From a virus, in the IMG/VR virus record IMGVR_UViG_3300050821_003884, positions 1-64,000 of that record: a stretch of DNA of 64,000 nt, one strand, 5' to 3'. This document shows, piece by piece, positions 4,008 through 51,626 of the stretch. The notes under the pieces were generated by a model. That model ran no database searches and was not told the DNA's origin. It saw only the letters and a list, made by a program, of their open reading frames with translations. The translations under genes and the position numbers were made by a program. Within the stretch, counting starts at the first letter, position 1; each line of letters begins with the position of its first letter.

Positions 4008-4287
4008 CGGCGTACTCCGTTTTCGTCATGCTTCCTCCCGGACACACGGATTTGCGTTCGCACACAATGTGCGCCCCACTTTCTCTTTCAAGTAACAGGG
4101 TTAGCTCGCTTCCAGTCAGCCTTAGCTTCGAAGTGAAAGGGGCCAGTTTGGAATCTGGCCCGCATTTCTTGGAAGCGATAAGGCGGGCATCCGGTCATGA
4201 CCCGGATTCGGCCAATCTACTCTTGGCCCGGAAACACGTCAAGGAGAAAAATTTAGGGCGGATAATATATCCACGAAGGCTATTTAA

Positions 4288-4305
4288 TGATGATGATCAT
4301 CATCA
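4288..4305. promoter_or_regulatory. Palindromic operator-like site A (copy 1)
   Basis: Perfect palindrome TGATGATGATCATCATCA in the divergent intergenic region. Confidence 0.7.
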
Positions 4306-4429
4306 TTTTTCTAATAACACACTAAAACTTCCTGTTATTTGCCGCTTCCAAACGTTGGCGACAAGTGGCAAATAAATTTTATTTAACTTATCTTTCAACA
4401 CGATATCCATTGATTAATTCCATACAGGC

Positions 4430-4458
4430 TTGACAAGAAAAACACCTCGTACTATGGT
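4430..4458 (+). promoter_or_regulatory. Sigma70-type promoter of rightward operon
   Basis: TTGACA-17 nt-TATGGT. Confidence 0.55.
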
Positions 4459-4510
4459 GCCGCTAGTTAGATCGGCTGAATAAGTGATCTACAGAACATG
4501 AATTAAATGA

Positions 4511-4528
4511 TGATGATGATCATCATCA
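4511..4528. promoter_or_regulatory. Palindromic operator-like site A (copy 2)
   Basis: TGATGATGATCATCATCA downstream of the putative promoter. Confidence 0.7.
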
Positions 4529-5955: not shown

Positions 5956-6186
5956 ATGCCATTTCCAAAAACCTACGCCGATTTAATTTCGGCTGGATTT
6001 AAGTTCTCTAAGTTCGGCACCTGCGCTGGCTGCCACGCCCGTGTTGAGTGGTGGCACACGTCGTCAGGAACGCTCATGCCGATGAATGAAATGCCCGACG
6101 GCAATTCCGAAGCTGTCACGCATTTCGCGACGTGCCCGTATGCCAAGAGCTTCAGGAAGAGACAGGCGGCAGGAGTGGCCAAGTGA
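5956..6186 (+). CDS. Small Cys/His Zn-finger-like phage protein
   Basis: GGAGG SD; CAGC...HFATCP. Confidence 0.65.
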   Translation: MPFPKTYADLISAGFKFSKFGTCAGCHARVEWWHTSSGTLMPMNEMPDGNSEAVTHFATCPYAKSFRKRQAAGVAK

Positions 6187-6208
6187 GTGCCGGGGTAACA
6201 GGAGCGAT

Positions 6209-7495
6209 ATGACAGCGACGATGATTAGCCAGCCGAAGACGCGAGAACTGCCACTCGACGCGATCAAATTCCGCAAGGATTTATATCCACGCCTTGAAAC
6301 AAATGCCATGACGGTGCAGAAGTACGCCGAGGACTTGAGCGTGCTCCCACCAATCGAAGTGAATCAGCACAACGAACTGATCGACGGGTGGCACCGATGG
6401 ACAGCGCATAAAAAAGCCGATGCGAAAACAATTCTCACTATAGCCACCGAGACTGCCAGCGACGCAGATTTACTGGAATTGGCAATCGAGCGCAACGCGA
6501 CTCACGGCCTGCAACTTTCGCAGGAAGACAAAAGGGATATGGCGAAGCGCATCTACGAGAGCACGCCAGAGCGCCAGCGTAGCGAGAAGAAGAAACGTCT
6601 CGAATTAATTCTATCCGTCTCGGAGCGGACCATTCGCGAATGGCTTGCGCGAACCGACAAAGATTCAAAGGAGAAGCGAAATAAGCGCATCTTCGACTTG
6701 TGGCTGGCCTGCCACACGCAGGAGGAGATCGCGGAAGAGGTCGGCGTCACCAAAGAGACAGTGAGTGAGATTTGTCAGAAATCGGCAGAGTTGCCGGAAT
6801 CTGACAAACCTGCCGCATCGCACCTCACCGACTTCGAAGTTCCAATTTACAACGTCTGGAAGCAGCAGGAGAAGTCCGCCGGATCAGGCCATTTCGGCAA
6901 CAGCGAAGTCCGCTGGGTTGATAACCTGCTCTACCTCTACACACAGTCATTCGATATCGTCGTTGATCCGTTTGCCGGTGGTGGTTCGACTCTCGATATC
7001 TGCAAGAAACGTTTTCGTCGCTACTGGGCGAGTGATCGGAAGCCGGTGCCGGAGCGTGCTCATCAGATACGCGAACACGATCTTACCAAGGGCCTGCCAC
7101 CGCTGCCGCGCTGGCAGGATGTAAAGCTCGTATATCTTGATCCGCCGTACTGGAAGCAGGCGGAAGGAAAATACAGCGACGATCCTACCGATCTTGCGAA
7201 CATGCCACTCGAACAATTCACCGAAACACTGGCTGGTATCATTCACAGCTTTGCGAAGAAATTAAAAAGCGGTGCCAAGATAGCGCTACTACTTCAGCCC
7301 ACGCAATGGAAGGCACCTGAGCGCGAATATACAGATCACGTCGCCGATATGATTCGCGCCATCAAGCTTCCTATTGATCTCCGCGTGCAGTGTCCATACG
7401 AAAGCCAGCAATGCACCCCGCAGATGGTGGACTGGGCAAAGCAGAATCGCAAGGTGCTCGTAATCTCACGCGAACTGGTGATCTGGAGAGTCTGA
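6209..7495 (+). CDS. ParB/Srx-like domain fused to amino-methyltransferase (N6A/N4C) domain
   Basis: LPPIEV...LIDGWHRW (ParB N-terminal), central HTH, VVDPFAGGGS (SAM motif I), LDPPYW (motif IV). Confidence 0.85.
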   Translation: MTATMISQPKTRELPLDAIKFRKDLYPRLETNAMTVQKYAEDLSVLPPIEVNQHNELIDGWHRWTAHKKADAKTILTIATETASDADLLELAIERNATHGLQLSQEDKRDMAKRIYESTPERQRSEKKKRLELILSVSERTIREWLARTDKDSKEKRNKRIFDLWLACHTQEEIAEEVGVTKETVSEICQKSAELPESDKPAASHLTDFEVPIYNVWKQQEKSAGSGHFGNSEVRWVDNLLYLYTQSFDIVVDPFAGGGSTLDICKKRFRRYWASDRKPVPERAHQIREHDLTKGLPPLPRWQDVKLVYLDPPYWKQAEGKYSDDPTDLANMPLEQFTETLAGIIHSFAKKLKSGAKIALLLQPTQWKAPEREYTDHVADMIRAIKLPIDLRVQCPYESQQCTPQMVDWAKQNRKVLVISRELVIWRV

Positions 7496-8871: not shown

Positions 8872-10161
8872 ATGAACTTAGTCCAAATTAAAATCCCGGC
8901 GTGGCACCAATCGACAGAGTTTCTAACTTCGTGCCCGACTCTCTATGTCGAGTCCGTAATTAAATCCAGCCCGCAACCGGGCGGGATGGACTCTGCACGT
9001 GGGCGGCAGGTGCATGAAGTGGGCGCGAAGTACGTCCACTACTGCGCTCAGGAGCGTGTAGCTTCCGATCTGGCGGCATTTGACAGGTTCGCCGCCGGTG
9101 CCGGTCCCTTGGCGGCCCGCATTCTAGGTGGCATGCGGGATAGTTACAACGTTGACTACGAACATGTGCTGGCGACGGAGCTAACGCTGAGCCTTGACGG
9201 GGACTTCCAGCCTACTGATGTAGTTGAAGCGATTGCCGGAACCTGTGCAGACACAGGCAGGGAAACGAAAGTAGTCGGCACTTTAGACGCGCTGTACGCA
9301 TTCCCGGATATAGCCACGATGCGGATCGATGATTTAAAGACGCATCCGCATCCCTTCGATCCTGCCGACAAGCTGCAATCGAAAACCTATGCGTTGCTGG
9401 TCTTTATGCACTGGGCATGGGTCGAGAAGATTATTTTCCGCCTGATCTTCGTGCGCTACAGGAAGGTAGTTCGCGAAGTTGAATTTACCAGAGACATGAT
9501 CCCGGATTTGATCGCCGCGATCCGCGCAGCCCGCGACCGCCAGATAAAAATTCACACGGACTACGAAGCTGGCAACGAGATCGAAGCGCTGGCCGGGAAC
9601 CACTGTTACTACTGCCCATTGCTTAGTAACGCTAAGTGCCCGATTGCGAAGTACAACGCCAACATGCAGCTCACCATGCAGCAGCGGCTGAATTTTAATT
9701 TGTGGTACGGGCAGTTCAGTCGCGCCAACAACTTGGCCATGAAGACGTTTGTGCAGGAGCGGGGAAGGCCCATCGTGCTCAAAGACTACAACGGCAAAAG
9801 CTATATCTACGGCCCGGTGGAGAAGGAACAGGAAGTCTATCCGGTATTTAAATTCACTACCAACGGCATGGAACTTCGCGATCAGGTAAACCCGGTGCTG
9901 CCGATCATCGACTTACTGATTGACTATGCCGTCGATAACCCCGGCGACTCACTGTGGATGCGCAACGTAGTGATAAGTTCCACCAGCCTGAAGAAGTATC
10001 TCAAGACAAACAAGAGAGCCTTTTTAGATCAGGCCGTCGAAGACACGGTCGAGAAGGTTACCAAAACACCTTTACGTGTGTCGAAGCCGCTCGACGCCGT
10101 GCCGGAAGACGAGTTTGACGATGACGACGAAGGCGACTGGGAAGAGGAGGGTTACCTGTGA
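8872..10161 (+). CDS. PD-(D/E)XK exonuclease, RecB/Cas4-like
   Basis: GRQVHE, GTLDAL, IDDLKT, QxxxY, HCYYCP...C cluster. Confidence 0.8.
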   Translation: MNLVQIKIPAWHQSTEFLTSCPTLYVESVIKSSPQPGGMDSARGRQVHEVGAKYVHYCAQERVASDLAAFDRFAAGAGPLAARILGGMRDSYNVDYEHVLATELTLSLDGDFQPTDVVEAIAGTCADTGRETKVVGTLDALYAFPDIATMRIDDLKTHPHPFDPADKLQSKTYALLVFMHWAWVEKIIFRLIFVRYRKVVREVEFTRDMIPDLIAAIRAARDRQIKIHTDYEAGNEIEALAGNHCYYCPLLSNAKCPIAKYNANMQLTMQQRLNFNLWYGQFSRANNLAMKTFVQERGRPIVLKDYNGKSYIYGPVEKEQEVYPVFKFTTNGMELRDQVNPVLPIIDLLIDYAVDNPGDSLWMRNVVISSTSLKKYLKTNKRAFLDQAVEDTVEKVTKTPLRVSKPLDAVPEDEFDDDDEGDWEEEGYL

Positions 10162-10424
10162 TGACAGATCAGGCGTTTCTGATGCGGGCCACCGAGATCA
10201 CCGCAGAGGCTAGGCGGGCCATGGATATCCATCCCCCTATCAACACGGCGCACGAGGGGTACGCCGTCATCAAGGAAGAGCTGGATGAATTCTGGGAAGA
10301 AGTAAAGCTCAACCCAAACAAGCTGAGCGCAGCCGGACGGGCCGACAGGATTGACAGGATGCGCAAGGAGCTTACCCAGACAGCAGCCATGTGCCTGCGA
10401 ACGATGCTGGACTTAGAGCTTTAA
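10158..10424 (+). CDS. MazG-like NTP pyrophosphohydrolase-fold protein
   Basis: HEGYAVIKEELDEFWEEVK...KELTQTAAM acidic helix pattern. Confidence 0.65.
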   Translation: MMTDQAFLMRATEITAEARRAMDIHPPINTAHEGYAVIKEELDEFWEEVKLNPNKLSAAGRADRIDRMRKELTQTAAMCLRTMLDLEL

Positions 10425-10651
10425 ACCGTCGTAGTTGAGAGTACCAATGCGTGGGAGTGAACCAAAAGGCTGGAGAGTGCCAATAGACGAGAGTGAACCA
10501 TAACTGATGCGAGTACCAGTTCCAAGGTGTGAACCATAGTAGTTGCGAGCGCCAAGATCGGTGAGTGTACGACGAACCAATCCGAGGGAGAGCACCAAAG
10601 CATACGCGTGAACCATTTGAGCGGCGAGTACCAAAACGTGTGAGTGAACCA
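10424..10651 (+). repeat. TIGR-like guide-RNA array block 1 (about 6 units of 36 nt)
   Basis: Alternating GMGTGAACC / GMGAGYRCC with 9-nt variable spacers, e.g. gagagtacc-aatgcgtgg-gagtgaacc-aaaaggctg-gagagtgcc-aatagacga-gagtgaacc. Confidence 0.85.
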
Positions 10652-10685
10652 ATAAAAATCAGGCTTGAAGACTAGGAGAAATGTA

Positions 10686-11429
10686 ATGCAAACCATCACA
10701 AGTAATGGCACGGACGACACAGCCCAGATACAGGCTGCGCTCGATGGTGGCGATTCGGTCATCATCAGCGGTAAATGCCTTGTCACCCAGATCAAACTGC
10801 ACGACAGCCAGCACCTCAACGGGAGCGGCGGCATCCTGCAACAACTGCCTACAGCCAAGGGGCACATGATCACGCTGGCCAAGCCGGAGGCGCGGGACTG
10901 GCACATCCAGAATCTGAAGCTTCAGGGCAACTGGACGGGCGGGGAACCGACTTATACCAGCGCCATCGACCTGAACTTTGGGACGGATGGCAACACGCAT
11001 CGCGGGGTCATCCAGAACGTTATCGTGGATCGCTTTGGTGGCAACGGCATCGTGCTGGACAAGACGCCGGGAACAGGCGGCGCGGGCGACAATCTCATCG
11101 CGTCTTGTCAAGTCTACGGCTGTGCCCTACATGGCTTCGTCATCAACGTGGACGACTGCAACCTGACGCAGTGCATCTCCGGCCAGAACTGCATGGATGG
11201 CTACAAGATTTCCGGCTGGGCCACGCACATCCATAACTCCAAGGCGTACATGGGGCCGGTGGGCTTCGAATTTAAAAACACGCAGGGGAACGTGTGCATC
11301 GGGCTGGAGTTTCAAAAGACAAATGATGGTCCCCATCAGGTCGCCTTCCTCTGGAATGGCGCGGAGACAGACATCCCCACGCTGGAAGCAATGACCACAA
11401 GCAGGTTTGTAGGGCTAGTGAGTCAATGA
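10686..11429 (+). CDS. Right-handed beta-helix (pectate-lyase-like) protein
   Basis: GTDDTAQIQAALD N-terminal motif and repeated NxxI/NGI/HGF beta-helix turns. Confidence 0.75.
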   Translation: MQTITSNGTDDTAQIQAALDGGDSVIISGKCLVTQIKLHDSQHLNGSGGILQQLPTAKGHMITLAKPEARDWHIQNLKLQGNWTGGEPTYTSAIDLNFGTDGNTHRGVIQNVIVDRFGGNGIVLDKTPGTGGAGDNLIASCQVYGCALHGFVINVDDCNLTQCISGQNCMDGYKISGWATHIHNSKAYMGPVGFEFKNTQGNVCIGLEFQKTNDGPHQVAFLWNGAETDIPTLEAMTTSRFVGLVSQ

Positions 11430-11665
11430 CGGGCGGTAGCTGGTTCAGGTGGCGAAGGAGACTCCCATTGAGGACGTATCAGGTGTGCTTAAAAGACGGT
11501 AAGTCGGTAGAGGTTCAGGCCGACGACGTGGACTTGGATGTCGTTGGCGAGAACGGAAGCTCGACATTCTTCTGGAATTTCCAAACCGGGGACGACGACG
11601 ACAACATCACTGTGGCGGCGATCCCGTTCAACAATGTCAACCATATCGTGAGCCGACCGGGATGA
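11426..11665 (+). CDS. Hypothetical protein
   Basis: ATGA-coupled in operon. Confidence 0.55.
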   Translation: MTGGSWFRWRRRLPLRTYQVCLKDGKSVEVQADDVDLDVVGENGSSTFFWNFQTGDDDDNITVAAIPFNNVNHIVSRPG

Positions 11666-11946
11666 GCTTTCGCGACACGCTGGCGGAATTAAATCCGGAC
11701 GCGCTGTTCGCGGACGGGTTCGACGATGCCTACGTCGGCTTCATCGACAATCACTGGGCCGTGGGCCTGCCGGTAGCGGTGTACTCGCGACGCAAGTGCA
11801 TCAAGATTCTCATGCAGGACATGGGCGAAGAAGCGGCTGAAGAGTTCTTTGAGTTCAACGTTGCCGGGGCGTATGTAGGGCCGCATACGCCGCTCTTTCT
11901 CGTGGACAGGTGCGATGACGATGACAGTGACGTATTTCCAAGTTGA
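11662..11946 (+). CDS. Conserved phage hypothetical protein
   Basis: ADGFDDAYVG...AVYS...EEFFEFNVAGAYVGPHTP, a widespread small phage family from recall. Confidence 0.7.
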   Translation: MSFRDTLAELNPDALFADGFDDAYVGFIDNHWAVGLPVAVYSRRKCIKILMQDMGEEAAEEFFEFNVAGAYVGPHTPLFLVDRCDDDDSDVFPS

Positions 11947-12130
11947 ATTTTATTCCAAGCTGGATAACCGCTGGGTGCCGCTCGGCGGCAGGGAGAAGAC
12001 GGAGGCCGAAGCATGGGAGATGTACGAGACGCTGCGCCCAGCTCATCGGCGACGCATCGTCAAGGTGACGCAGACGACGGAGGTGATTATGCAGATGAGC
12101 GAAGCAGGAGTCGAAGCATGGCCGCGATGA
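11915..12130 (+). CDS. Hypothetical protein
   Basis: Fills operon gap, coupled to next gene. Confidence 0.5.
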   Translation: MTMTVTYFQVEFYSKLDNRWVPLGGREKTEAEAWEMYETLRPAHRRRIVKVTQTTEVIMQMSEAGVEAWPR

Positions 12131-12699
12131 CGCATGGCGAACTGGTAAAACGCGCCGTGCGCTGGCTGACAAGTACACAGCGTTGCGGCGTGGTGCTGGC
12201 CGAGATCAGCACCGTCGCGCATGAGAATCCGGACGCGATTGGCTGGCAGGCGCATAAGTCGATTCTGGTGGAGTGCAAGACCAGCCGCTCCGACTTTCTT
12301 GGGCAACGGGACAAACCCTGCGTCAGGGCCAACTGTCTGGTAGGCAACGAGCGCTACTACCTGTGCGAAGCCTATGTTATCCGGCCTGAAGATGTGGATG
12401 ATACCGGCTTCGGCCTGCTGTGGGTGGACGGCGATTACGTCAGGATACGCTCGAAAGCCCAGTTCCGCTCGCTGTCGCCGTCGGAGTATCAGGACGAGCG
12501 GACCATGCTGGTGTCAGCGCTGCGCCGCATTAAATTACGGGAGTTTCTGGTGATCGCCCCACCAGAGAGTGAACCAATGCAATTGCGAGTACCAGAGCAA
12601 GAGAGTGAACCACGAAATCCGGGAGTACCAAAGGTGGCGAGTGAACCAATTAAGTCTGGGGAGCACCAATCCAAGGGAGTTAACCACGAGTGCCAATGA
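12127..12699 (+). CDS. MmcB-like PD-(D/E)XK nuclease-fold protein; C-terminus encoded by array
   Basis: ENPDAIGW...ILVECKTSRSDFL...GNERYYLC...GLLWV. Confidence 0.7.
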   Translation: MTHGELVKRAVRWLTSTQRCGVVLAEISTVAHENPDAIGWQAHKSILVECKTSRSDFLGQRDKPCVRANCLVGNERYYLCEAYVIRPEDVDDTGFGLLWVDGDYVRIRSKAQFRSLSPSEYQDERTMLVSALRRIKLREFLVIAPPESEPMQLRVPEQESEPRNPGVPKVASEPIKSGEHQSKGVNHECQ

Positions 12700-12780
12700 A
12701 ACGCGTGAACCAAAATGGTAGCGAGTGCCAACTAAGTGCGTGAACCATGAATCTTGTGAGCACCATAGAAGCAGAGTGAA
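12567..12780 (+). repeat. TIGR-like guide-RNA array block 2 (about 6 units)
   Basis: gagtgaacc-aatgcaatt-gcgagtacc-agagcaaga-gagtgaacc-acgaaatcc-gggagtacc...; ends GAGTGAA 5 nt before next ATG. Confidence 0.85.
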
Positions 12781-12785
12781 TAACT

Positions 12786-14726
12786 ATGAAAGTAGCCAAA
12801 TTACACTTGGAAAATTTCCGCATTCACAAGGATTCGGTACTGTCCTTCGGCGACAGCTCGTTCGTGGTGATTCGCGGACGCAACGCTGCCGGTAAGTCCA
12901 CCATCGGGCAGGGACTTTCCATGTGCCTCACGCCATCGACCAGCGGCCTCGATCCGCGAGGCCAAGGATTTATTTCGAAGATCAAGCGCGGCGCATCGAA
13001 GGCCGTTCTCACGGCGGACCTGCAAACCAAGCACCACCTCATCCAGCGCACGGTTACGCTGAACACCAGCGCTTCCGGGCGCACACAGAAAACGGTTTGC
13101 CTGAGTGATCCCACGTGGAAGCCGACGCGCTTCGATCAGGAGCTGGAGAAGCAGCGGGCCGCGCTGACGGTAGTCCTGAATACGGATGCCTTTCTGCGCA
13201 TGGACGAAAAGGAACAGAAGAACCTGCTGGCCTCCCTTGCACTTCCCAGCCGCTACGACTTCGCTCCGCTGGTCGTGGCGGAGGTAGAGACGATATTGGG
13301 GCGGGGAACCGTCAACTTTGAAGGCGAGCCATTCGCTGCGATCAATCAGGCATACAAGAAGCTCTTTGACGAAAGGCAGATCGTCAACCGGCAGGTAAAG
13401 GAATTCGCCATCCCGGATGAGCTGCCGATCCCGCCGGACGTGGACTCCGCTTCGATACAGGATCAGCTCGCATCGCTGCGGGCAAGGCGCAGGGAGCTAC
13501 AGCAGGAGCGCGATCAGGCCGTTGCTGTAGCGAACAAGGAAGAGCTGTCCCGCGTTCGCGCCAAGGAAAGGATCGACGAGGCGCTCAACGCTGAACAGCG
13601 GCGCAGGAAAGCCATCGCGGACAAGCTGCTCAAGGATGGCCAGTTGGAATACCTGCGCAAGGTTGCAGCCGGGAAGCCGGAACTGGACAGGCTGGTGGCT
13701 GAACGTGCGGCCTGTGTACGCACGCGTGAGCACAACGCCACCCAGCTCAAAGGGCTGGAAGGGATACCGTGGGGCGCGAAGGCGTGTCCGACGTGCGAAC
13801 AGCCGGTCGATCCGGAGAAATTAAAAGCGCTGGGCGAAAAGCTGAGGGGCTGGGTCCGAGACACGGAAACATCTCTGGGCATGATGGATCAAAAAATCAA
13901 AGCGCTGGGAGACGTGGCCGGGGCCGTCGAGGCCATCGCCGTCCATGAAGAAGCGCGTAAGAAGCTGGAGGAATTCGACGCGCAGTCGGATCAGCGGCAG
14001 AAGCAGATTGACGAGGCGCGGAAGGATGTGCCGGGGCCGACGCACTTCGATTTCTCGCCCTTCAACGAAAGTATGGGCGACTGCGACGCTGAGATCGAGC
14101 GGCTGTCGAACCTGCTGCGCCCGGTGATCGTGGCCGAAGAGCGCAGGAAGGAAGTCGAGGTCAAGCGCGGCCAGCTCGCGGCCCTCAAAGAAAAAGCCAT
14201 GGTGCTGGACCAGCTCGTGAAGTACTTCGACAAGGACGGAATCAAGGCCAAGCTGCTGGGTGAGTACATCGGCGGCTTTGAGCACAGGCTGAATGAAGTG
14301 CTGAACGCGTGGGGATATTCCTGCGCGTTGTCGATTGAGCCGTACAGCTTCGACGTAACGACGGCCCGTGAAGACGTGATCCCGCTGCGCGAACTCTCCG
14401 GTGCGGAGCGGGTAATGTTCTCGCTGGCCTTCCAGTGCGCGGTGTCAAGGACGGCAAACATCGGCATCGTAGTAATCGACGAAGTGGCAACACTGCTGCC
14501 GGAACTGCGCACGACGATGTACAGGCAGCTCCATGGAATGGTCCGGGACGGCTATCTGGATCAGGTCATCATGCTGGTCGCGGATACCTCGGAAGAACTC
14601 CCCAGCAAGCCGCTGGCGGGTAGCGCGTTCTTTATGGTGGACGGCGGCGCGGTGTACCCACTCTCAAACAGCTTTCCACGAAAGGAGCCTACCAGTGAAC
14701 GAACAGCAGAAAGAAGTATCGCCTGA
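12786..14726 (+). CDS. SbcC/Rad50-like SMC ATPase
   Basis: Walker A GRNAAGKS, long coiled coil with CPTC Zn hook, signature LSGAE, Walker B VVIDE. Confidence 0.9.
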   Translation: MKVAKLHLENFRIHKDSVLSFGDSSFVVIRGRNAAGKSTIGQGLSMCLTPSTSGLDPRGQGFISKIKRGASKAVLTADLQTKHHLIQRTVTLNTSASGRTQKTVCLSDPTWKPTRFDQELEKQRAALTVVLNTDAFLRMDEKEQKNLLASLALPSRYDFAPLVVAEVETILGRGTVNFEGEPFAAINQAYKKLFDERQIVNRQVKEFAIPDELPIPPDVDSASIQDQLASLRARRRELQQERDQAVAVANKEELSRVRAKERIDEALNAEQRRRKAIADKLLKDGQLEYLRKVAAGKPELDRLVAERAACVRTREHNATQLKGLEGIPWGAKACPTCEQPVDPEKLKALGEKLRGWVRDTETSLGMMDQKIKALGDVAGAVEAIAVHEEARKKLEEFDAQSDQRQKQIDEARKDVPGPTHFDFSPFNESMGDCDAEIERLSNLLRPVIVAEERRKEVEVKRGQLAALKEKAMVLDQLVKYFDKDGIKAKLLGEYIGGFEHRLNEVLNAWGYSCALSIEPYSFDVTTAREDVIPLRELSGAERVMFSLAFQCAVSRTANIGIVVIDEVATLLPELRTTMYRQLHGMVRDGYLDQVIMLVADTSEELPSKPLAGSAFFMVDGGAVYPLSNSFPRKEPTSERTAERSIA

Positions 14727-16252: not shown

Positions 16253-16270
16253 TGATGATGATCATCATCA
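16253..16270. promoter_or_regulatory. Palindromic operator-like site A (copy 3)
   Basis: TGATGATGATCATCATCA, palindrome extends to 24 bp. Confidence 0.7.
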
Positions 16271-16291
16271 TATGCAAATAAGTTACTGACA

Positions 16292-16319
16292 ATAAAAATA
16301 GGCGGCGTGTTCCGCCGCC
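16292..16319 (-). terminator. Intrinsic terminator ending the leftward early region
   Basis: GGCGGCG-gaaca-CGCCGCC followed by T-rich tract on minus strand. Confidence 0.6.
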
Positions 16320-44869: not shown

Positions 44870-45908
44870 CTTTTGCACCCAGTGTTTACGCGGCTGAAAT
44901 AAACTGCACACGCGTGTTTCCCTTTGTTTGCGCGTCGGACATGCGTCTGTCCCTTTGTTTATGCGGGTGTTAGCTGCTGTTGCCTTAATACACGTTTCCA
45001 TGCTTGCGTTTTCGCCCCGGAACGGTGGCCGGGACAGGATGCCTGTACTCTCCTGCTAAAACACCTGACTCTCTGCCGGGAGTGCCTCCCGGCGGGTGCT
45101 CCCGCCGCGTAGGCGCATCCGCTGTGCATCCGCTGCAAACGCCGCAAGCTTCGCCATGGCAAACGCCACGCCAACGCGCTACAACCGCCGCCAGACGCCA
45201 GCAAACGCCACGCCACGAATCGCCAGCACTGCCGCCACGGAACGCCGCCGCCGCTGCCGTGTGTTCGCGCATGGATGGCAGGGTTTGGCCGATGCTGGAA
45301 ACGATCTCGCCAATTTTCGCCGCGCATTTTATTCCGCGCAATGTCCTGTAAACGCGTTTGTCCGCATTGTCCTTTTTTCCGTCCACGTGGCGCAAACCCG
45401 CATGGATACAGGGGTTTTAGCGCCTCAGAGTCTCATTCTGTACAATCGGACTTCAGCCCCGGCCTCGCCTCAGCCCCGGCCTCGCCGGACACCTGTAAAC
45501 GCGTTTGCGCACCTCGAAGTCCTCGAAGTCCTCGCCGGAGGTTGTCCCGCACCCCCACCTGCTGCTACAGCTATAACTCATTTTCCGCCTCTTGCCTTCT
45601 TCCTTCTCCAGCCGAAGGCGCAGCTTTTCGCCACCGTACGGGGCTGAAGGCGCAGCTTTACCCTGAAAAATTCACAGCGGTGGAAAATAAAAATTTTCGG
45701 CAGCCGGATAATTCCATACGTGGCGATGATAAGTTGAATGGCAACAATATATTGCCGCGATCTTGGCTCTGTACTTACCGGGTAAAAGCGCAGCTTAGGC
45801 GCAGCATGTGTATGGAATTATGGGGGTTACGGGTAGAAATTGCTGGAAAAATATGCACGAACGGTGTACATAACTAGTGGACACAATTGGTGCTCACGAT
45901 TGGTGCTT

Positions 45909-46415
45909 ATGGATATCAATCATTGTTTGCGTTGCGGGCGGGACTGGTGCTACCGGGGTGAAGGCAGGGCGCTGCGCTGCGGCAAATGCAAGAGTCCGTA
46001 CTGGGACCGGCCCATGGGAAACGCAATACAGCCAGTGTTGGTGAGTGTGCCAGACAGTGTGAGCGAAGTGCCGCGCAAGCCGGTGCAGTCGGCGGCGGAG
46101 CCGTCCATGGATATCTTGCGGGAGATGGCGGCGGGCCGGATTCCGGCGGAATATCGGGAACCAGCGAAGAATGCCGGGACTTCTATACGTCAGACCGCCT
46201 ACCCGGTGGAAAAGGGCGAAGCGCTGTTCTTTCTGGATCGGCAGGCGTCTCCGGGAAACGGCTTTATGAATGATGAGGCGGGGCCGGAAGCTGAGATGTG
46301 CCCGATCCGGGGCCGGGACGACCAGCGTGGTGAGTGGATACTGTGTGCCCTGCCCAAGCATGATCCGCGCAAGGTGAAATGCGTGCCGGGGGAAAGGGTG
46401 CCGTATGACGAGTGA
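45909..46415 (+). CDS. Zn-ribbon protein (paralog family)
   Basis: CLRCGRDW...ALRCGKCKSPYWD. Confidence 0.65.
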   Translation: MDINHCLRCGRDWCYRGEGRALRCGKCKSPYWDRPMGNAIQPVLVSVPDSVSEVPRKPVQSAAEPSMDILREMAAGRIPAEYREPAKNAGTSIRQTAYPVEKGEALFFLDRQASPGNGFMNDEAGPEAEMCPIRGRDDQRGEWILCALPKHDPRKVKCVPGERVPYDE

Positions 46416-46688: not shown

Positions 46689-46734
46689 AGCTAACAGGGA
46701 GAGCATTAAGGGAACTTAAGGACGGGAGGGGAAT

Positions 46735-47058
46735 ATGGCGGAACAACCGTTGCGGGAACTTTACCAGCGTCTAAACCATTTGCTGTACGACGCCTCGCTG
46801 ACTATCGACCACTTCGAAGCCAGCCCGGAACTGGACAGGCTGCCCAACGTGGCCGACATGGGAGCGCGTCGGGTGGGTTACCCGGAAACGGAGAAGTACT
46901 GCCGGTTCAAGGTGGACCAGATGATCGCGCATGCCGAAGCCATCCACGACGAAATGGACAGGGTGGCAAAGGTACTGGAAAGGCTGGCGGCTGAAGTGCA
47001 GCCTTCCGTGGCGGAAACGGGTCCGTGGCGCGAGCTTTTACGTTTTAATAAAAAGTAA
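46735..47058 (+). CDS. Hypothetical protein
   Basis: GGGAGGGG SD; array starts right after its stop. Confidence 0.6.
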   Translation: MAEQPLRELYQRLNHLLYDASLTIDHFEASPELDRLPNVADMGARRVGYPETEKYCRFKVDQMIAHAEAIHDEMDRVAKVLERLAAEVQPSVAETGPWRELLRFNKK

Positions 47059-49147
47059 GCGCCATCAGAAGTAGAGCGTCAAGCCAAAGAAATCGTGCGT
47101 GCCAAGTAATTTGCGTGAGCCAACTGATACGCGAGCGCCATGAAGGGAGAGTGAGCCGCTATGCTGGAGAGCGCCAAATGAAGGGAGCGGTACACTGGGG
47201 CGTCCGAATCATGGCCGATGAGAGTACCACAGTGTCAGAGTGAACCAAACGAGTGATATAAGGGGTTTTTGTACATTAACCATTGTCTAGGCGAGCACCA
47301 CGAACAGCGAGTGAATCATGGGACATGAGAGTGCCAAGAGGCGGGAGTGAATCAAGCAAATTGAGAGTACCGGGAAAAGGGAGTGGCGAGCCATTTGCGG
47401 ATGCGAGTGCCAAAGCAAGCGTGCGAGCCAGCCTAAGTGAGCGACAGCCGTTCTTGATACGAGCGCCATGGAGTGGGAGCGAACCATATCTTGAGTGAGC
47501 GCCAAAATGGTGGTGTGAACCACCGAAATTGCGAGTACCAAAGTAAATGCGTGAACCGGAAAGCTATGAGAGCACCAGAATCAGGGAGTGAGCCAAAGAT
47601 CGTGAGAGCGCCAAAGGCCGAGGAGCGAACCATCATTGCTGCGAGCACCATTAAAGTTGCGTGAATCAGTAATCATGCGAGCACCAAAAGAGGTGAGTGA
47701 ATCAGACATGACGAGAGCGCCAAGATCAGCGAGTGAACCAGTAATTATGCGAGCACCAGAATAATAGCGTGAACCAATCTAGCAGCGAGCACCAAGACGA
47801 TAGAGTGAATCATGCAAACTGCGAGTGCCACGCCCGGAGAGTGAACCAAAGTATGAGCGGGTGCCAAACCAAATGCGTGAATAAACGAATGATACAGGTG
47901 GCTTTTATAATTTTAATTTCAGCCAAAATTACTTGCGAGCGCCATCGTAAGAGTGAACCAAGTCTTTGGCGAGTGCCGGGAATCCCGCGTGAGCCAATAG
48001 GTAGTGCGAGCGCCAAAGTGACAGTGCGAACCGAAAGACGCGAGATGCGCCAAAGAAAATGCGTGAACCGTAATGAAAGTGAGCGCCAAGTTCAGAGCGT
48101 GAACCAAGTTGATTGCGAGCACCATTAACGGCGAGTGAACCAACATGGATGTGCGTGCCAAGCGCATGGAGTGAAATGAGTGATACCGGGGCTTTTGCTT
48201 TTCAAACCATTACATCGGCGGGTGCCAATAAACGAGCGTGAAATTAACCAGTTCAAATGCGCAGTACCAAATAATCCGCGTGAACCACAAAGTAGTGCGA
48301 GCACCACAACACCGGCGTGAACCATATGCACCGCGTGTGCCATAGTAAAAGCAAAAGCCCCGGTATCGCTCGTTTAACCAACCTTACGGCGAGCGCCAAG
48401 TTGGAAGCGTGGAACCGGAATCAGAGTGAGCGCCAAATACGCTGAGTGAAACCATGGGTGTTGCGAGCACCAGTAAGACTGCGTGAACCAAGATCAGGGA
48501 GAGTGCCAATCGATGAGAGTGAACCAAGTACACCGGGAGTTACCAAAGGAGTTGAGTGAACCAAAGAGTGTTGCGAGTGCCATAACTGCGGAGTAACCAA
48601 CCCACAAGCGAGTACCAAAGATTACGCGTGAACTAATTCATTTGCGAGCGCCAAGGAATCGGAGTGAACCAATCAGCAGGGGAGGAGGACCGTGAAAACT
48701 TACACCGTGCTGCTCAGGGACCGCAGTTATCACGAAATTAAAGCCATGAACGAAAACAGCGCTTACAACAAGGCCCTGCGCCGCTTCGGAATCCATAGCG
48801 TCTTTGCCGTCTGGCGGACCCGATCAGCGCCCGGAGTCTTTAAGGATTAAGGGAACAACAGCCAGTGTAGATGCGAGCGCCAAGATACCAGTGTGAGCCG
48901 ATGTACAGCGAAAGCCATCTTTGACGGGAGTACCGGAAGGATTGAGTGAACCAATGTCGAAGGTGAGCACCACGGTATAGGAGTGAACCAATAGATGCGA
49001 GAGCGCCACAGCCATAGCGTGAACCAGCTTGATAGTGAGTGCCAGATATAGGGAGTGAACCAGAACCCTAGAGAGCGCCAAGATTGAGGAGTGAATTTGA
49101 AAGAAGTTACCCCGGATCGCGTGCGAGTGCCGAATCCAAGGAGTGAA
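47059..49147 (+). repeat. TIGR-like guide-RNA array block 3 (roughly 45-50 units, interrupted)
   Basis: Continuous 36-nt periodicity of GMGTGAACC-N9-GMGAGYRCC-N9; ends GAGTGAA 9 nt before the tas ATG. Confidence 0.9.
48692..48850 (+). CDS. Small basic protein (52 aa) embedded in the array
   Basis: GGAGGAGG SD, GTG start, MKTYTVLLRDRSYHEIKAMNENSAYNKALRRFG...KD*; non-repetitive island within the array. Confidence 0.6.
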   Translation: MKTYTVLLRDRSYHEIKAMNENSAYNKALRRFGIHSVFAVWRTRSAPGVFKD

Positions 49148-49156
49148 TTTTAATTT

Positions 49157-50173
49157 ATGAGCACCATCGCACCCATCGCTGAAGTCATGGAGCCGCTCAA
49201 GCGGCTTACGCGGGATTTAGCCAAAGCCGCCGTCACCCTGTCCGCGCACGAGGCGCGGTTTCTGGTGGACGCCTACTACATGATGCAGAAGAACCGCATC
49301 GCCGCCGCGCATCAGATTCGTACCCTGAGCGCGGGCAACGAACCCCACACCGTGCTGGACTGGCTGGAAACCCAGAGCGAGATGCTGGAATCGCAGATCA
49401 AACGCGCTCTGGACAAGTGGACGGACGCGAACCCGGTCGGCATCTGGGCAAAGAGTATCACCGGCATCGGCCCCGTCATCGCGGCGGGATTACTGGCGCA
49501 TATCGACATCACCCACTCGGAGACGGCGGGGCATATCTGGTCCTTCGCCGGACTCAATCCCGAGATGGTGTGGAAGAAAGGAGAGAAGCGGCCTTTCAAC
49601 GCGTCGCTCAAAACCCTGTGCGCCTTCAAACTGGGCGAGTCGTTCGTGAAGGTGCAGGCGAATGAAAACGACATCTACGGCAGGGTCTTCGCCATGCGCA
49701 AGAAGCAGGAAGCGGAATACAATGTGGCGGGCAGGTTTGCCCAGATAGCCGCGACGAAGGCGGCGATGGTTGGCAAGTCCACCGACGCGTACAAGGCGTA
49801 CAGCGCCAACCTGCTGCCCCCGGCGCACATCCATGCGCGGGCCAGACGCTACGCGGTAAAACTGTTTTTAGCCCATTACCACATGGTGGCTTATTTCCAG
49901 CACCACCAGCGGCTGCCGCCCTTTCCCTACGCCTTCTCCCATCTGGAAGGGCACATCCACTTCATCGAGCCGCCGCATGCGGATTTGATTCCGGGCCTGC
50001 CTGCGGCGCTGAATATCTACCAGTTAGAGATGCGCAACCGGCCAAGGAATTTTAATCCACGACAACCAAAAGCTATGAGCGCACCAATGCAGATGAGTGA
50101 ACCAGTGTCGCCGGGTGTACCAAGAAACGAGAGTGAACCGAAGCCGAAAGGCAAAAGGAAGCGCAAGGCGTAA
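49157..50173 (+). CDS. tasA: TIGR-associated Nop-domain RNA-binding protein without nuclease (TasA-like; IS110/Nop56-related)
   Basis: Coiled-coil N-terminus, SITGIGPVIAAGLLAHID...GHIWSFAGLNP...FNASLKT...YGRVF...HIHARARRYAVKLFL; no N-terminal RuvC/DEDD and no IS110 catalytic SG after GLxP; arrays on both sides. Confidence 0.85.
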   Translation: MSTIAPIAEVMEPLKRLTRDLAKAAVTLSAHEARFLVDAYYMMQKNRIAAAHQIRTLSAGNEPHTVLDWLETQSEMLESQIKRALDKWTDANPVGIWAKSITGIGPVIAAGLLAHIDITHSETAGHIWSFAGLNPEMVWKKGEKRPFNASLKTLCAFKLGESFVKVQANENDIYGRVFAMRKKQEAEYNVAGRFAQIAATKAAMVGKSTDAYKAYSANLLPPAHIHARARRYAVKLFLAHYHMVAYFQHHQRLPPFPYAFSHLEGHIHFIEPPHADLIPGLPAALNIYQLEMRNRPRNFNPRQPKAMSAPMQMSEPVSPGVPRNESEPKPKGKRKRKA

Positions 50174-50950
50174 ACCACAGTACTTGCGAGCACCAAGCAG
50201 TCGGAGTGAACCAGAGAATCGGAGAGCACCAAGCCAAGGGAGTGAACCAGCACACGAGAGAGCACCAAGGAGCGCGAGTGAACCAGTAAGTTAGCGAGTA
50301 CCAAGAACCGCGAGTGAACCATTAGCAGTTGCGAGCACCAGAACTAGGGAGTGAACCAGTAGCCACGTGAGCACCAATATCGGTGAGTGAACCATCATGG
50401 TTGTGAGCACCAGAGGAAACACGTGAACCAAGATTTCCGTGAGCGCCAATGGACGAGAGTAAACCGGAAAGCGGGAGAGCACCAAGCGGATAGAGTGAAC
50501 CAAACCAGCAATACCGGGGCTTTTGTACTTTGAACTAATTCATCAGGGAGCGCCAAAAAGAATGCGTGAACCATGGGCCATGCGGGTGCCAAAGCACGAG
50601 AGTGAAAACCATTCCGCGTGAGCGTACCAAAAATGTCGCGTGAACCAGAGTCGTTGTGAGTGCCATACAAAGGGAGTGAGCGGGTTTTGTACTTAACCGA
50701 TTATCAGGCGAGCGCCAGCGTCGAGGAGTGAACCACGAGCCGCGAGAGCACCAATGCTGCGGAGTGAACCAGAAGGAGATGAGAGCGCCAAGGCAGGGAA
50801 GTGAACCAGTGTACCAGTGAGCACCAAAATGAGTGAGTGAACCATTAGATTAAGGGAGCACCAATAGTACGGCGTGAACCAAAAAGCGAGAGAGCGCCAA
50901 GTTGGAAGTGTGAACCAAAGGACATGAGAGTGCCAGACAAAGGGAGTGAA
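50064..50950 (+). repeat. TIGR-like guide-RNA array block 4 (roughly 22 units)
   Basis: Starts inside the 3' end of tas; e.g. gcgagcacc-aagcagtcg-gagtgaacc-agagaatcg-gagagcacc-aagccaagg-gagtgaacc. Confidence 0.9.
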
Positions 50951-51148
50951 ATTAAATTCAGCTCCGGCGTGCGTGGCAAGTACGCCGGGAAGCTGCCGCT
51001 GGTGGCCGACGTGAGTATTAGCATCACCTGCCCCAAGTGCGGGATGACGAGTTACAACCCGAACGACGTAAGCCAGCGTTACTGCGGCAACTGCCATGCA
51101 TTTCACGACGACATGAAAGAGGGGTTTGAACGTGGCCCTAGAAGCTGA
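50924..51148 (+). CDS. Small Zn-finger protein
   Basis: ITCPKCGMTSYNPND...YCGNCH; start uncertain. Confidence 0.55.
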   Translation: MRVPDKGSEIKFSSGVRGKYAGKLPLVADVSISITCPKCGMTSYNPNDVSQRYCGNCHAFHDDMKEGFERGPRS

Positions 51149-51626
51149 GATCGAGCGCGGCTGGGCGCTGCTGGAACTGGATGTGCCTGCCTTAGAGGGC
51201 GGCGTCGCCATGAAGTTTGTCGTCGAAAACGATACCGAATCGACTATCGTCTTCGTGCCCGAACCGGAAGTGATCAACGATCCCGATCTGAAAAGCGCCG
51301 TTGCCCAGAAGGTGCGTAAGCTGGTGCGGGAGATGGACGCGCACACCGTCTATCACATCTCCGATGCATGGACCGGCCACGTGCCCGACGCCAAGAACAG
51401 GCCGGAGCTGATGCGACTGGTGCAGGAGGTCGGGATAAAGAAGGCTTCCGAAATGGGCCTTGCCACCGTGCGCGAAGCTCTGATGTGCCAGATTACCAAG
51501 CGCAATGAGGCCGCCCTGCTGCGCTGGTTCTATCGCCGCGAGGGCACGGAAGAAAAGATCGTCATGGAGGAGCGCGATAAAATCAACGGACTGGCGCAGG
51601 GAAGATTCTCCAAGCTCTTTACCTGA
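51126..51626 (+). CDS. Hypothetical protein
   Basis: GAGGGG SD, TTG start. Confidence 0.55.
   Translation: MNVALEAEIERGWALLELDVPALEGGVAMKFVVENDTESTIVFVPEPEVINDPDLKSAVAQKVRKLVREMDAHTVYHISDAWTGHVPDAKNRPELMRLVQEVGIKKASEMGLATVREALMCQITKRNEAALLRWFYRREGTEEKIVMEERDKINGLAQGRFSKLFT

What the first reader, a model, noticed from the sequence alone, without database searches (positions are those of the whole stretch)
10424..12780. Orphan guide arrays about 37 kb from the tas gene, bracketing five cargo genes
Seen: two further blocks of the same repeat pair (10424-10651 and 12567-12780, about 6 units each) sit in the recombination operon with no tas gene nearby. They enclose a beta-helix protein, three small genes and an MmcB-like nuclease-fold gene. 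Inference: guides are supplied in trans from a separately regulated transcript, so different guides could appear at different infection stages. Alternatively, one array was split by a 1.9-kb gene insertion with the repeats acting as recombination points. Searches limited to tas neighbourhoods would miss such arrays.
Basis: partly seen in the sequence, partly recalled or inferred. Interest (0 to 1): 0.75.

Follow-up and report, generated by a model that had tools for sequence, protein, structure and literature searches.

The report
Detached TIGR guide arrays bracketing genes
A soil phage keeps twelve extra guide RNAs of the TIGR-Tas system in two small arrays 36-39 kb from the only gene for the protein that uses them. 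The arrays wrap around five unrelated genes inside a DNA-repair operon, so published surveys limited to the effector's neighbourhood would miss them.

Summary
Window 10424-10651 and 12567-12781 are genuine dual-repeat TIGR arrays. Each has 6 units of 36 nt (edge GAGTGAACCA, loop GNGAGYRCCA, spacers 8+8), on the + strand only.

- **Membership:** the repeats are identical to the arrays flanking the single TasA gene (49157-50173). All 12 spacer pairs are unique.
- **Transcription:** the arrays lie in a different transcription unit from tas, a + operon running from a promoter at 4430 to about 16.3 kb. A 28-kb block of opposite-strand genes separates them from tas.
- **Relatives:** two related 121-kb phages have no array and none of the five genes at this slot. 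They carry their own tas-less array elsewhere.
- **Strain variation:** a 95-98% identical strain from another soil study keeps the cargo and the second array, and differs in the 5' units of the first.
- **Array ends:** the outer ends are canonical truncated edges and the inner ends are full edges, as if one array hosts an inserted five-gene cassette.

Use in trans by TasA is inferred, not shown. It is supported by repeats with no mismatches and by complete relatives whose arrays lie 15-40 kb from tas.

Caveats: the record is about 78% complete, there are no RNA data, and the targets are unknown. This scan has noted detached TIGR arrays in at least 17 other genomes. No paper in the library describes them.

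The parts
10424..10651 (+). Orphan TIGR array A1. It has 6 units of 36 nt. It begins with a 5'-truncated edge on the stop codon of the upstream gene and ends with a full edge. The edge of unit 4 is split by a 7-nt insertion.
10686..11429 (+). Cargo gene 1, a 247-aa right-handed beta-helix-like protein. RBS AGGAGA lies at 10673-10678.
   Evidence: Pfam Beta_helix E 0.005, below cut-off. An 89% identical copy sits in a different gene context in L089.
11426..11665 (+). Cargo gene 2, 79 aa, no family match. Its start overlaps the previous stop (ATGA).
11662..11946 (+). Cargo gene 3, 94 aa, phrog_13182 (function unknown).
   Evidence: E 4.7e-21
11915..12130 (+). Cargo gene 4, 71 aa, no family match.
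12127..12699 (+). Cargo gene 5, an MmcB-like PD-(D/E)XK protein. The conserved domain ends near 12555. The last ~46 codons are read from array A2.
   Evidence: homolog ends 12 aa after REFL[VI]I; 3dnx E 5.7e-8, TM 0.69
12567..12781 (+). Orphan TIGR array A2. It has 6 units, starts with a full edge and ends with a 3'-truncated edge, GAGTGAAT, 5 nt before the SbcC-like ATG. Unit 4 lacks spacer A.
   Evidence: Conserved in strain X2.
8872..10424 (+). Upstream operon genes: an exonuclease (8872-10161, phrog_69) and an 88-aa protein (10158-10424). Both are conserved in the related phages.
12786..14726 (+). Downstream operon gene, an SbcC-like ATPase. It is 68% identical in the related phages.
4287..4528 (+). 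Probable promoter of the operon that contains A1 and A2. TTGACA-17 nt-TATGGT at 4430-4458 lies between two copies of the palindrome ATGATGATGATCATCATCAT.
   Evidence: read from the sequence; note e1-6082146
16253..16319 (.). End of the + operon: a third palindrome copy and the GC hairpin 16302-16319. Minus-strand genes converge here.
49157..50173 (+). The only tas gene in the record. It is TasA type, with a Nop domain and no nuclease domain.
   Evidence: PF02371; TasR 9mty_A E 8.7e-13, TasH E 5e-8
47070..50950 (+). Main TIGR arrays on both sides of tas, with the same edge and loop repeats.

Best explanation
A1 and A2 are bona fide dual-repeat TIGR guide arrays, cognate to the phage's single TasA, placed far from it.

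**Origin.** Together they behave as one array locus with a five-gene cassette embedded at an edge repeat. The locus sits between the exonuclease and SbcC-like genes of an operator-flanked + strand operon (about 4.4-16.3 kb).

**Likely mechanism (inferred).**
- The arrays have no promoter or terminator of their own and are read as part of the polycistronic operon transcript.
- TasA is made from a separate transcription unit at 49 kb. It binds the repeats and releases 36-nt tigRNAs by cutting in the edge repeats.
- The 10 canonical units then add unique 8+8-nt guides to the roughly 60 units (56 weight-matrix windows, 37 fully parsed) encoded beside tas.
- TasA has no nuclease domain, so the complexes should bind DNA and block transcription or replication of a target.
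- The target is still unknown. It is not the phage itself and not its two relatives.

**Shown:** sequence identity of the repeats, their integrity, the genomic layout, conservation and unit turnover between strains, and the recurrence of detached arrays in related phages.

**Inferred:** transcription, processing, loading and repression.
For: - **Same repeat pair and register as the tas-adjacent arrays.** The weight matrix scores the orphan units at 26-56 bits, and nothing else in the genome matches.
- **No decay.** Nine parsed orphan units have 0 mismatches at 17 fixed repeat positions, against 0.40-0.64 per unit beside tas (Mann-Whitney p = 0.009).
- **Unique guides.** All 12 spacer pairs are unique, so this is not a recent copy of the main array.
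- **Conserved in a second strain.** A 95-98% identical strain from a different study keeps the cargo and A2. Its three changes inside A2 fall in a spacer, in the over-long spacer (1-nt deletion) and at the degenerate Y position of a loop; a fourth, at 12561, lies 6 nt upstream of the first edge. Its A1 has 65 nt of 5' units replaced by about 101 nt, a difference of one 36-nt unit.
- **Separate transcription unit from tas**.
- **Detached arrays recur in phages with this repeat family.** G001 and G002 have 13 units about 60 kb from tas. G003 is a complete 111-kb genome with no array within 6 kb of tas and arrays 20-40 kb away, interleaved with small genes. G016 has 16 units about 15 kb away. G024 has 3 units 8.5 kb away.
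- **Tas-less arrays turn over like tas-adjacent ones.** G001 and G002 differ in their first five units while repeats and flanks are conserved. About half of the units differ in both kinds of array.
- **Trans supply works experimentally in other systems.** Arrays driven from their own promoters load Tas (Xu 2026; PMC13421893). SpTasH processes pre-tigRNA by itself through Y289/H296. Our TasA aligns H266 to H296, with Y258 next to Y289.
- **TasA proteins repress transcription** (Xu 2026).
Against: - There are no RNA data of any kind for this locus.
- No consensus promoter or terminator was found next to the arrays, so transcription rests on operon read-through.
- Two of the 12 units are defective and one has a 1-2 nt over-long spacer.
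- No target was found in the phage or in two relatives above the shuffled-pair control. 16-nt guides cannot be matched reliably in large databases.
- The arrays are absent from the syntenic slot of the nearest relatives, so they are evolutionarily young or dispensable.
- The record is about 78% complete, so another tas may exist.
Confidence: 0.6

Rival explanations
1. The arrays are by-products of recombination, not working guides. TIGR repeats act as short portable homologies at which gene cassettes are inserted, lost or exchanged between co-infecting phages. On this reading A1 and A2 are the two halves of an array that merely mark a cassette junction.
For: - The outer ends are canonical truncated edges and the inner ends are full edges. 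Deleting 10652-12576 restores a regular 12-unit array.
- The whole 2.36-kb block replaces three unrelated small genes in G001 and G002.
- The cargo is mosaic. The beta-helix gene is 89% identical in a different context. The MmcB-like gene is 68% identical in array-less contigs.
- A lineage-specific 52-aa ORF sits between loop repeats in the main array.
- G003 arrays are interleaved with genes, with truncated edges at the junctions.
- The edge of A1 unit 4 is split in its middle by 7 nt.
- In X2, A1 appears to carry a 27-nt piece of A2.
Against: This reading explains origin, not maintenance, and is compatible with the arrays also being used. Relics should decay, yet the orphan repeats are cleaner than those beside tas and are kept in a second strain. 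No relative with an unsplit array at this slot was found.
Confidence: 0.2
2. The arrays act in cis on the operon RNA. TasA binds and cuts at the edge repeats, splitting the polycistronic transcript into an exonuclease part, a cargo part and an SbcC part. This would occlude the SbcC ribosome site and the 3' end of the MmcB-like gene, so that TasA level tunes expression of the repair genes and the cargo.
For: - A1 starts on a stop codon, and A2 supplies the last ~46 codons of the MmcB-like ORF and the bases just upstream of the SbcC-like ATG.
- The tas gene shows the same overlap with its own arrays (note e1-6082152).
- Tas-dependent cleavage inside edge repeats is established for dual-repeat systems.
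Against: This is pure inference and no expression data exist. The related phages run the same operon without arrays. Unique, fast-changing spacers are not needed for a cis punctuation role.
Confidence: 0.1
3. The arrays serve a second Tas protein encoded in the roughly 22% of the genome that the record lacks, or a Tas made by another element in the same cell.
For: - The record is linear and CheckV estimates 78% completeness.
- In G001 and G002 the tas locus lies in a region with no counterpart in this record.
- A Terriglobales MAG carries mini-arrays of this repeat type, with no Tas found using this query.
Against: The repeats are identical to those beside the resident tas, so no other partner is needed. 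The resident tas locus looks like the relocated ortholog of the relatives' locus (71-77% identity). It occupies the slot of their tas-less array.
Confidence: 0.1

Closest known systems
Dual-repeat TIGR-TasA systems (Faure et al. 2025, PMC12045711; Xu et al. 2026 preprint, 10.64898/2026.09.09.750476)
   Same: Alternating 10-nt edge and loop repeats that both end in CCA. Short paired spacers in 36-nt units. Truncated edges at the array ends. A Nop-only Tas protein in the same phage. Arrays that can overlap coding sequence.
   Different: These arrays are 36-39 kb from tas, in another transcription unit. They have no terminator, sit inside a protein-coding operon and wrap a five-gene cassette. Published surveys describe arrays upstream of, downstream of or inside tas, and searched only 5-10 kb around it.
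Orphan CRISPR arrays and virus-borne mini-CRISPR arrays that use Cas proteins encoded elsewhere (own knowledge)
   Same: Guide arrays detached from the effector genes, assumed to be used in trans. Spacer turnover is biased to one end, as seen in the tas-less arrays of G001 and G002.
   Different: The repeat architecture, guide geometry (two spacers reading opposite strands) and effector family differ, and no adaptation genes are known. Here the effector is in the same phage genome.
Box C/D snoRNA genes dispersed in genomes and processed from host-gene or polycistronic transcripts (discussed in Faure 2025)
   Same: Nop-domain partner. Box C/D-like motifs frame the guides. Guide genes are scattered and released from longer transcripts that also carry coding sequence.
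   Different: snoRNAs guide RNA methylation, whereas tigRNAs guide DNA binding. This is an analogy of layout only.
Other detached TIGR arrays noted by this scan (e1-5976433, e1-5650759, e1-5459912, e1-5735939, e1-5813700)
   Same: Phage TIGR arrays 10-90 kb from a single nuclease-less TasA.
   Different: Those are AI notes that I did not test. The present case adds the gene-bracketing layout, absence at the syntenic slot in relatives, and variation between strains.

Membership tests
Dual-repeat TIGR array | Two different short repeats (8-12 nt) alternate with short spacers in a unit of about 36 nt | tested here: met
   Edge GAGTGAACCA, loop GNGAGYRCCA, spacers 8+8, period 36. 10 of 12 units are canonical.
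Dual-repeat TIGR array | Edge and loop repeats share box D-like start and box C (CCA) end motifs that covary | tested here: met
   Both repeats read G-N-G...CCA. There are 0 mismatches at 17 fixed positions in nine parsed orphan units. The motif definition is from Faure 2025.
Dual-repeat TIGR array | The array begins with a 5'-truncated edge and ends with a 3'-truncated edge | tested here: met
   This holds for the outer ends of A1 plus A2 taken together. The inner ends, which face the cargo, are full edges.
Dual-repeat TIGR array | A rho-independent terminator follows the array | tested here: not met
   No terminator-like site follows A1 or A2. A gene start follows each.
Dual-repeat TIGR array | The array lies next to a tas gene, upstream, downstream or inside it | tested here: not met
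   The nearest tas is 36.4 kb away across a 28-kb opposite-strand block.
Dual-repeat TIGR array | A cognate Tas (Nop domain) protein is in the same genome and has arrays with the same repeats | tested here: met
   TasA at 49157-50173 is flanked by arrays with identical repeats.
Dual-repeat TIGR array | The array is transcribed and processed into 36-nt tigRNAs bound by Tas | not testable with these tools
   No RNA run holds the locus.
TasA (nuclease-less Tas) | A Nop domain homologous to solved Tas proteins, with no RuvC or HNH domain | tested here: met
   phmmer gives TasR 9mty_A E 8.7e-13 and TasH E 5e-8. The aligned region starts at residues 43-78 of 338, which leaves no room for a nuclease domain. 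Only PF02371 is found in Pfam.
TasA (nuclease-less Tas) | A C-terminal Tyr/His processing loop, as in dual-repeat systems | tested here: inconclusive
   Pairwise alignment puts H266 opposite SpTasH H296 and Y258 one position from Y289. No structure or assay is available.

The most novel reading that the evidence does not exclude
In this phage clade, TIGR arrays are not appendages of tas. They are dispersed loci that host gene cassettes.
- The repeats serve as recombination or landing sites that move small gene cassettes in and out of operons.
- Spacer turnover proceeds without tas nearby.
- TasA cleavage at edge repeats both makes guides and cuts the surrounding polycistronic mRNA, tying guide supply to expression of the bracketed genes.
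- Detached arrays would also explain part of the many tas loci for which no array has been found.
Probability: 0.2. Interest if true: 0.8.

Novelty: new variant of a known kind. Interest (0 to 1): 0.6.

Why it matters
- **Survey coverage.** Published surveys looked only 5-10 kb around tas and found arrays at 6,685 of 20,096 tas loci. Here, and in several complete related phages, some or all guides lie 15-60 kb from tas. Guide repertoires are therefore under-counted, and some tas loci without a detected array may simply keep their arrays elsewhere.
- **Regulation.** Guides in a different operon from the effector allow guide sets to follow different expression programmes.
- **Array growth.** Tas-less arrays change units as fast as tas-adjacent ones, which bears on the open question of how TIGR arrays grow.
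- **Mobile genes.** The array-genes-array layout hints that the repeats also shape where mobile genes land.

Tried and rejected
- **Self-targeting.** 16-mer and 18-mer targets were built in both possible geometries from all parsed units and searched in the phage and in G001 and G002. Hits were no better than shuffled spacer pairs.
- **Spacer sharing.** No spacers are shared between the orphan arrays and the main arrays or the relatives.
- **Promoters and terminators.** Consensus scans around the arrays found nothing convincing.
- **RNA families.** Rfam and tRNA scans gave no match.
- **Phage GenBank collection.** The region has no DNA match.
- **RNA evidence.** No RNA holder is listed.
- **Cargo genes as TIGR partners.** MmcB-like homologs in 28 viral contigs have no arrays. 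The other cargo genes are absent from all TIGR-bearing loci fetched.
- **Structure of the MmcB-like protein.** The single-sequence fold failed (pLDDT 36). The fold from an alignment worked.
- **Close Tas relatives in the species-genome collection.** None were found.
- **Array pattern in the species-genome collection.** It gave 12 hits, which is about the chance expectation. Only three loci, in two Acidobacteriota MAGs, hold arrays.
- **Unsplit array or empty site at this slot in other strains.** None was seen. The one 'joint' in X2 is a repeat-level alignment, not a deletion of the cargo.
- **Base composition.** It does not mark the cargo as foreign.
Full report
**What is there**

The window is the first 64 kb of a linear 80,897-bp virus record, which CheckV rates at 78% complete. 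It comes from soil metagenomes.

At 10424-10651 (A1) and 12567-12781 (A2) the + strand carries alternating copies of two repeats with a 36-nt period. Aligning all units of this genome and two relatives shows that both repeats are 10 nt long. The edge is GAGTGAACCA and the loop is GNGAGYRCCA. Both start G-N-G and end CCA, and they are separated by 8-nt spacers. This is the dual-repeat TIGR architecture of Faure et al. 2025 (PMC12045711).

The core GTGAACCA occurs 45 times on the + strand and once on the - strand. All + strand copies lie in A1, A2 and the two large arrays at 47.07-49.15 and 50.09-50.95 kb. There are none in 64-81 kb.

A weight matrix trained only on 88 tas-adjacent units from three genomes scores nine orphan units at 26-56 bits. 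Nothing else in the record exceeds 10 bits, and the - strand maximum is -6.

Each orphan array has six units, and ten of the twelve are canonical. In A1, the edge of unit 4 is split by 7 nt. In A2, unit 4 lacks spacer A and unit 3 has an over-long spacer.

**The effector**

The 338-aa protein at 49157-50173 is the only Tas-like gene in the record. It matches the solved TasR (9mty_A, E 8.7e-13) and TasH (E 5e-8) over the Nop domain only. It has no room for a nuclease domain, so it is a TasA.

Its C-terminal segment aligns H266 with the catalytic H296 of SpTasH, and Y258 lies next to Y289. Self-processing of precursors is therefore plausible but untested.

**Setting**

- A1 begins on the stop codon of an 88-aa gene that follows an exonuclease (phrog_69).
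- A2 ends 5 nt before the ATG of an SbcC-like ATPase (phrog_77).
- Between the arrays lie five tightly coupled genes. They are a beta-helix-like protein, three small proteins, and a PD-(D/E)XK protein whose model matches 3dnx (E 5.7e-8, TM 0.69).
- The PD-(D/E)XK ORF reads about 46 codons into A2. A homolog in a related phage stops 12 residues after the last conserved motif.

A TTGACA-17-TATGGT promoter at 4430-4458 lies between two copies of a 20-bp palindrome. A third palindrome copy and a GC hairpin lie at 16.25-16.32 kb. Genes conserved with relatives are on the + strand from 4.5 to 15.6 kb, on the - strand from 16.9 to 44 kb, and on the + strand again from about 45 kb. A1 and A2 therefore cannot be co-transcribed with tas. 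No promoter or terminator was found beside the arrays, so read-through of the operon is the simplest assumption.

**Comparison with relatives**

Two phages of 121 and 122 kb (G001, G002) share the Tas (71-77% identity) and the SbcC-like protein (68%).

- At the syntenic slot they have three unrelated small genes, with no arrays and no cargo.
- Each has its own 13-unit array about 60 kb from tas.
- That tas-less array sits where this phage has its tas locus. The tas module has therefore moved in one lineage.
- The tas-less arrays of G001 and G002 have nearly identical flanks and identical 3' units. Their first five units have unrelated spacers, and there are whole-unit indels.
- About half of the units differ between the two phages in both the tas-less and the tas-adjacent arrays.

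A pattern search found this repeat family in about 30 viral contigs, and 20 of the 22 longer records examined have a tas match.

- G003 is a complete 111-kb genome. Its TasA has no array within 6 kb, and five arrays lie 20-40 kb away, interleaved with small genes.
- G016 has 16 units about 15 kb from tas across the genome ends.
- G024 has 3 units 8.5 kb from tas.

**Variation between strains**

Contigs of a soil run from another study (X2, about 95-98% identity) cover the whole region.

- The cargo and A2 are kept.
- The differences inside A2 are one spacer substitution, a 1-nt deletion in the over-long spacer, and a C>T change at the degenerate loop position. A fourth change, at 12561, lies 6 nt upstream of the first edge.
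- In A1, 65 nt of the 5' units are replaced by about 101 nt, which is one 36-nt unit more. That replacement includes 27 nt that match the unit 1/2 junction of A2.

**Integrity**

The nine parsed orphan units have no mismatch at 17 fixed repeat positions. Units beside tas average 0.40-0.64 mismatches (p = 0.009). All 12 orphan spacer pairs are unique.

**Origin**

A1 has a canonical truncated start and a full edge at its end. A2 has a full edge at its start and a canonical truncated end. Removing 10652-12576 would give one regular 12-unit array.

The main array also contains a 52-aa ORF (48692-48850) between loop repeats, and that ORF has no homolog in the relatives. The G003 arrays flank gene groups with truncated edges at the junctions. 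The cargo is mosaic.

I read the locus as one array hosting an inserted cassette. No unsplit form was found.

**Function**

Nothing here shows transcription, processing or loading. The case for use in trans rests on four points:
- the integrity of the repeats;
- their conservation and unit turnover;
- the existence of complete relatives whose arrays lie 15-40 kb from tas;
- published experiments in which arrays expressed from separate promoters load Tas, and in which TasA represses transcription.

No target was found in the phage or its relatives. Mini-arrays of this repeat type occur in a Terriglobales MAG, and a related phage contig is binned with a Pyrinomonadaceae MAG. This points to Acidobacteriota hosts.

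**Novelty**

No paper in the library mentions orphan or distant TIGR arrays. Published surveys stopped at 5-10 kb from tas. This scan's own notes list detached TIGR arrays in at least 17 other genomes. I did not test those notes.

Noticed in passing
window 46700-51150, compared with G001:51400-57300: The tas gene and its arrays occupy the slot where the two related phages have only a tas-less 13-unit array. In those phages tas sits about 60 kb away. The whole tas module has apparently moved between lineages.
   Followed up: partly
L093 (G003:62000-78000) and L092 (G003:38000-52000): G003 is a complete 111-kb phage whose single TasA (44.16-45.06 kb) has no detectable array within 6 kb. Its arrays lie at 65.7-68.7, 76.4 and 85.2 kb, interleaved with small genes.
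   Followed up: partly
L005:6140-6625 compared with L006:6165-6650: These tas-less arrays come from two near-identical phages. Their 3' units are identical. Their first five units have unrelated spacers with intact repeats, and there are 36-39-nt indels. Turnover is biased to the 5' end.
   Followed up: partly
window 48692-48850: A 52-aa ORF with a GGAGGAGG ribosome site sits inside the main array between loop repeats. It has no homolog in any related locus fetched.
   Followed up: partly
window 48180-48210 and 48345-48375; also 47255, 47880, 50510 and 50685: An element of about 30 nt (core ATACCGGGGCTTTTG) breaks the main arrays into blocks. One copy is inverted, giving a long inverted repeat around about four units.
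   Followed up: no
window 45840-46415 and 50924-51148; L005:6589-7218: Zinc-ribbon proteins lie directly beside arrays in this phage, in G001 and G002 (immediately downstream of the tas-less array) and in G018 and G011. They may be a recurrent neighbour of these arrays.
   Followed up: no
L100:4160-4300 and L107:3309-3352 (Terriglobales MAG contig CAVPBA010000001.1, 820.2 kb + and 795.3 kb -): Mini-arrays of the same repeat type lie in a bacterial chromosome contig, 25 kb apart on opposite strands. No Tas was found in that MAG with this Tas as query, and there is no PF02371 hit within 100 kb.
   Followed up: partly
window 10560-10580: The edge repeat of A1 unit 4 is split exactly in its middle by 7 nt (GAGTG-TACGACG-AACCA). 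It looks like an array end joined to an array start, perhaps the scar of a lost insert.
   Followed up: no
window 12556-12699 and 50070-50173: The MmcB-like ORF and the tas ORF both run into array units in the same frame, which gives repeated SEP...VP/AP peptide tails. In the third frame every edge repeat supplies a TGA stop.
   Followed up: partly
window 4287-4528: A strong sigma-70-like promoter (TTGACA-17-TATGGT) lies between two copies of a 20-bp ATG/CAT palindrome. The second copy overlaps the start codon of the first operon gene.
   Followed up: partly
window 6086-7495: A ParB-like/DNA methyltransferase fusion protein lies 3 kb upstream of A1. ParB-like genes are reported next to some tasA genes (Faure 2025). 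I did not test for any link here.
   Followed up: no
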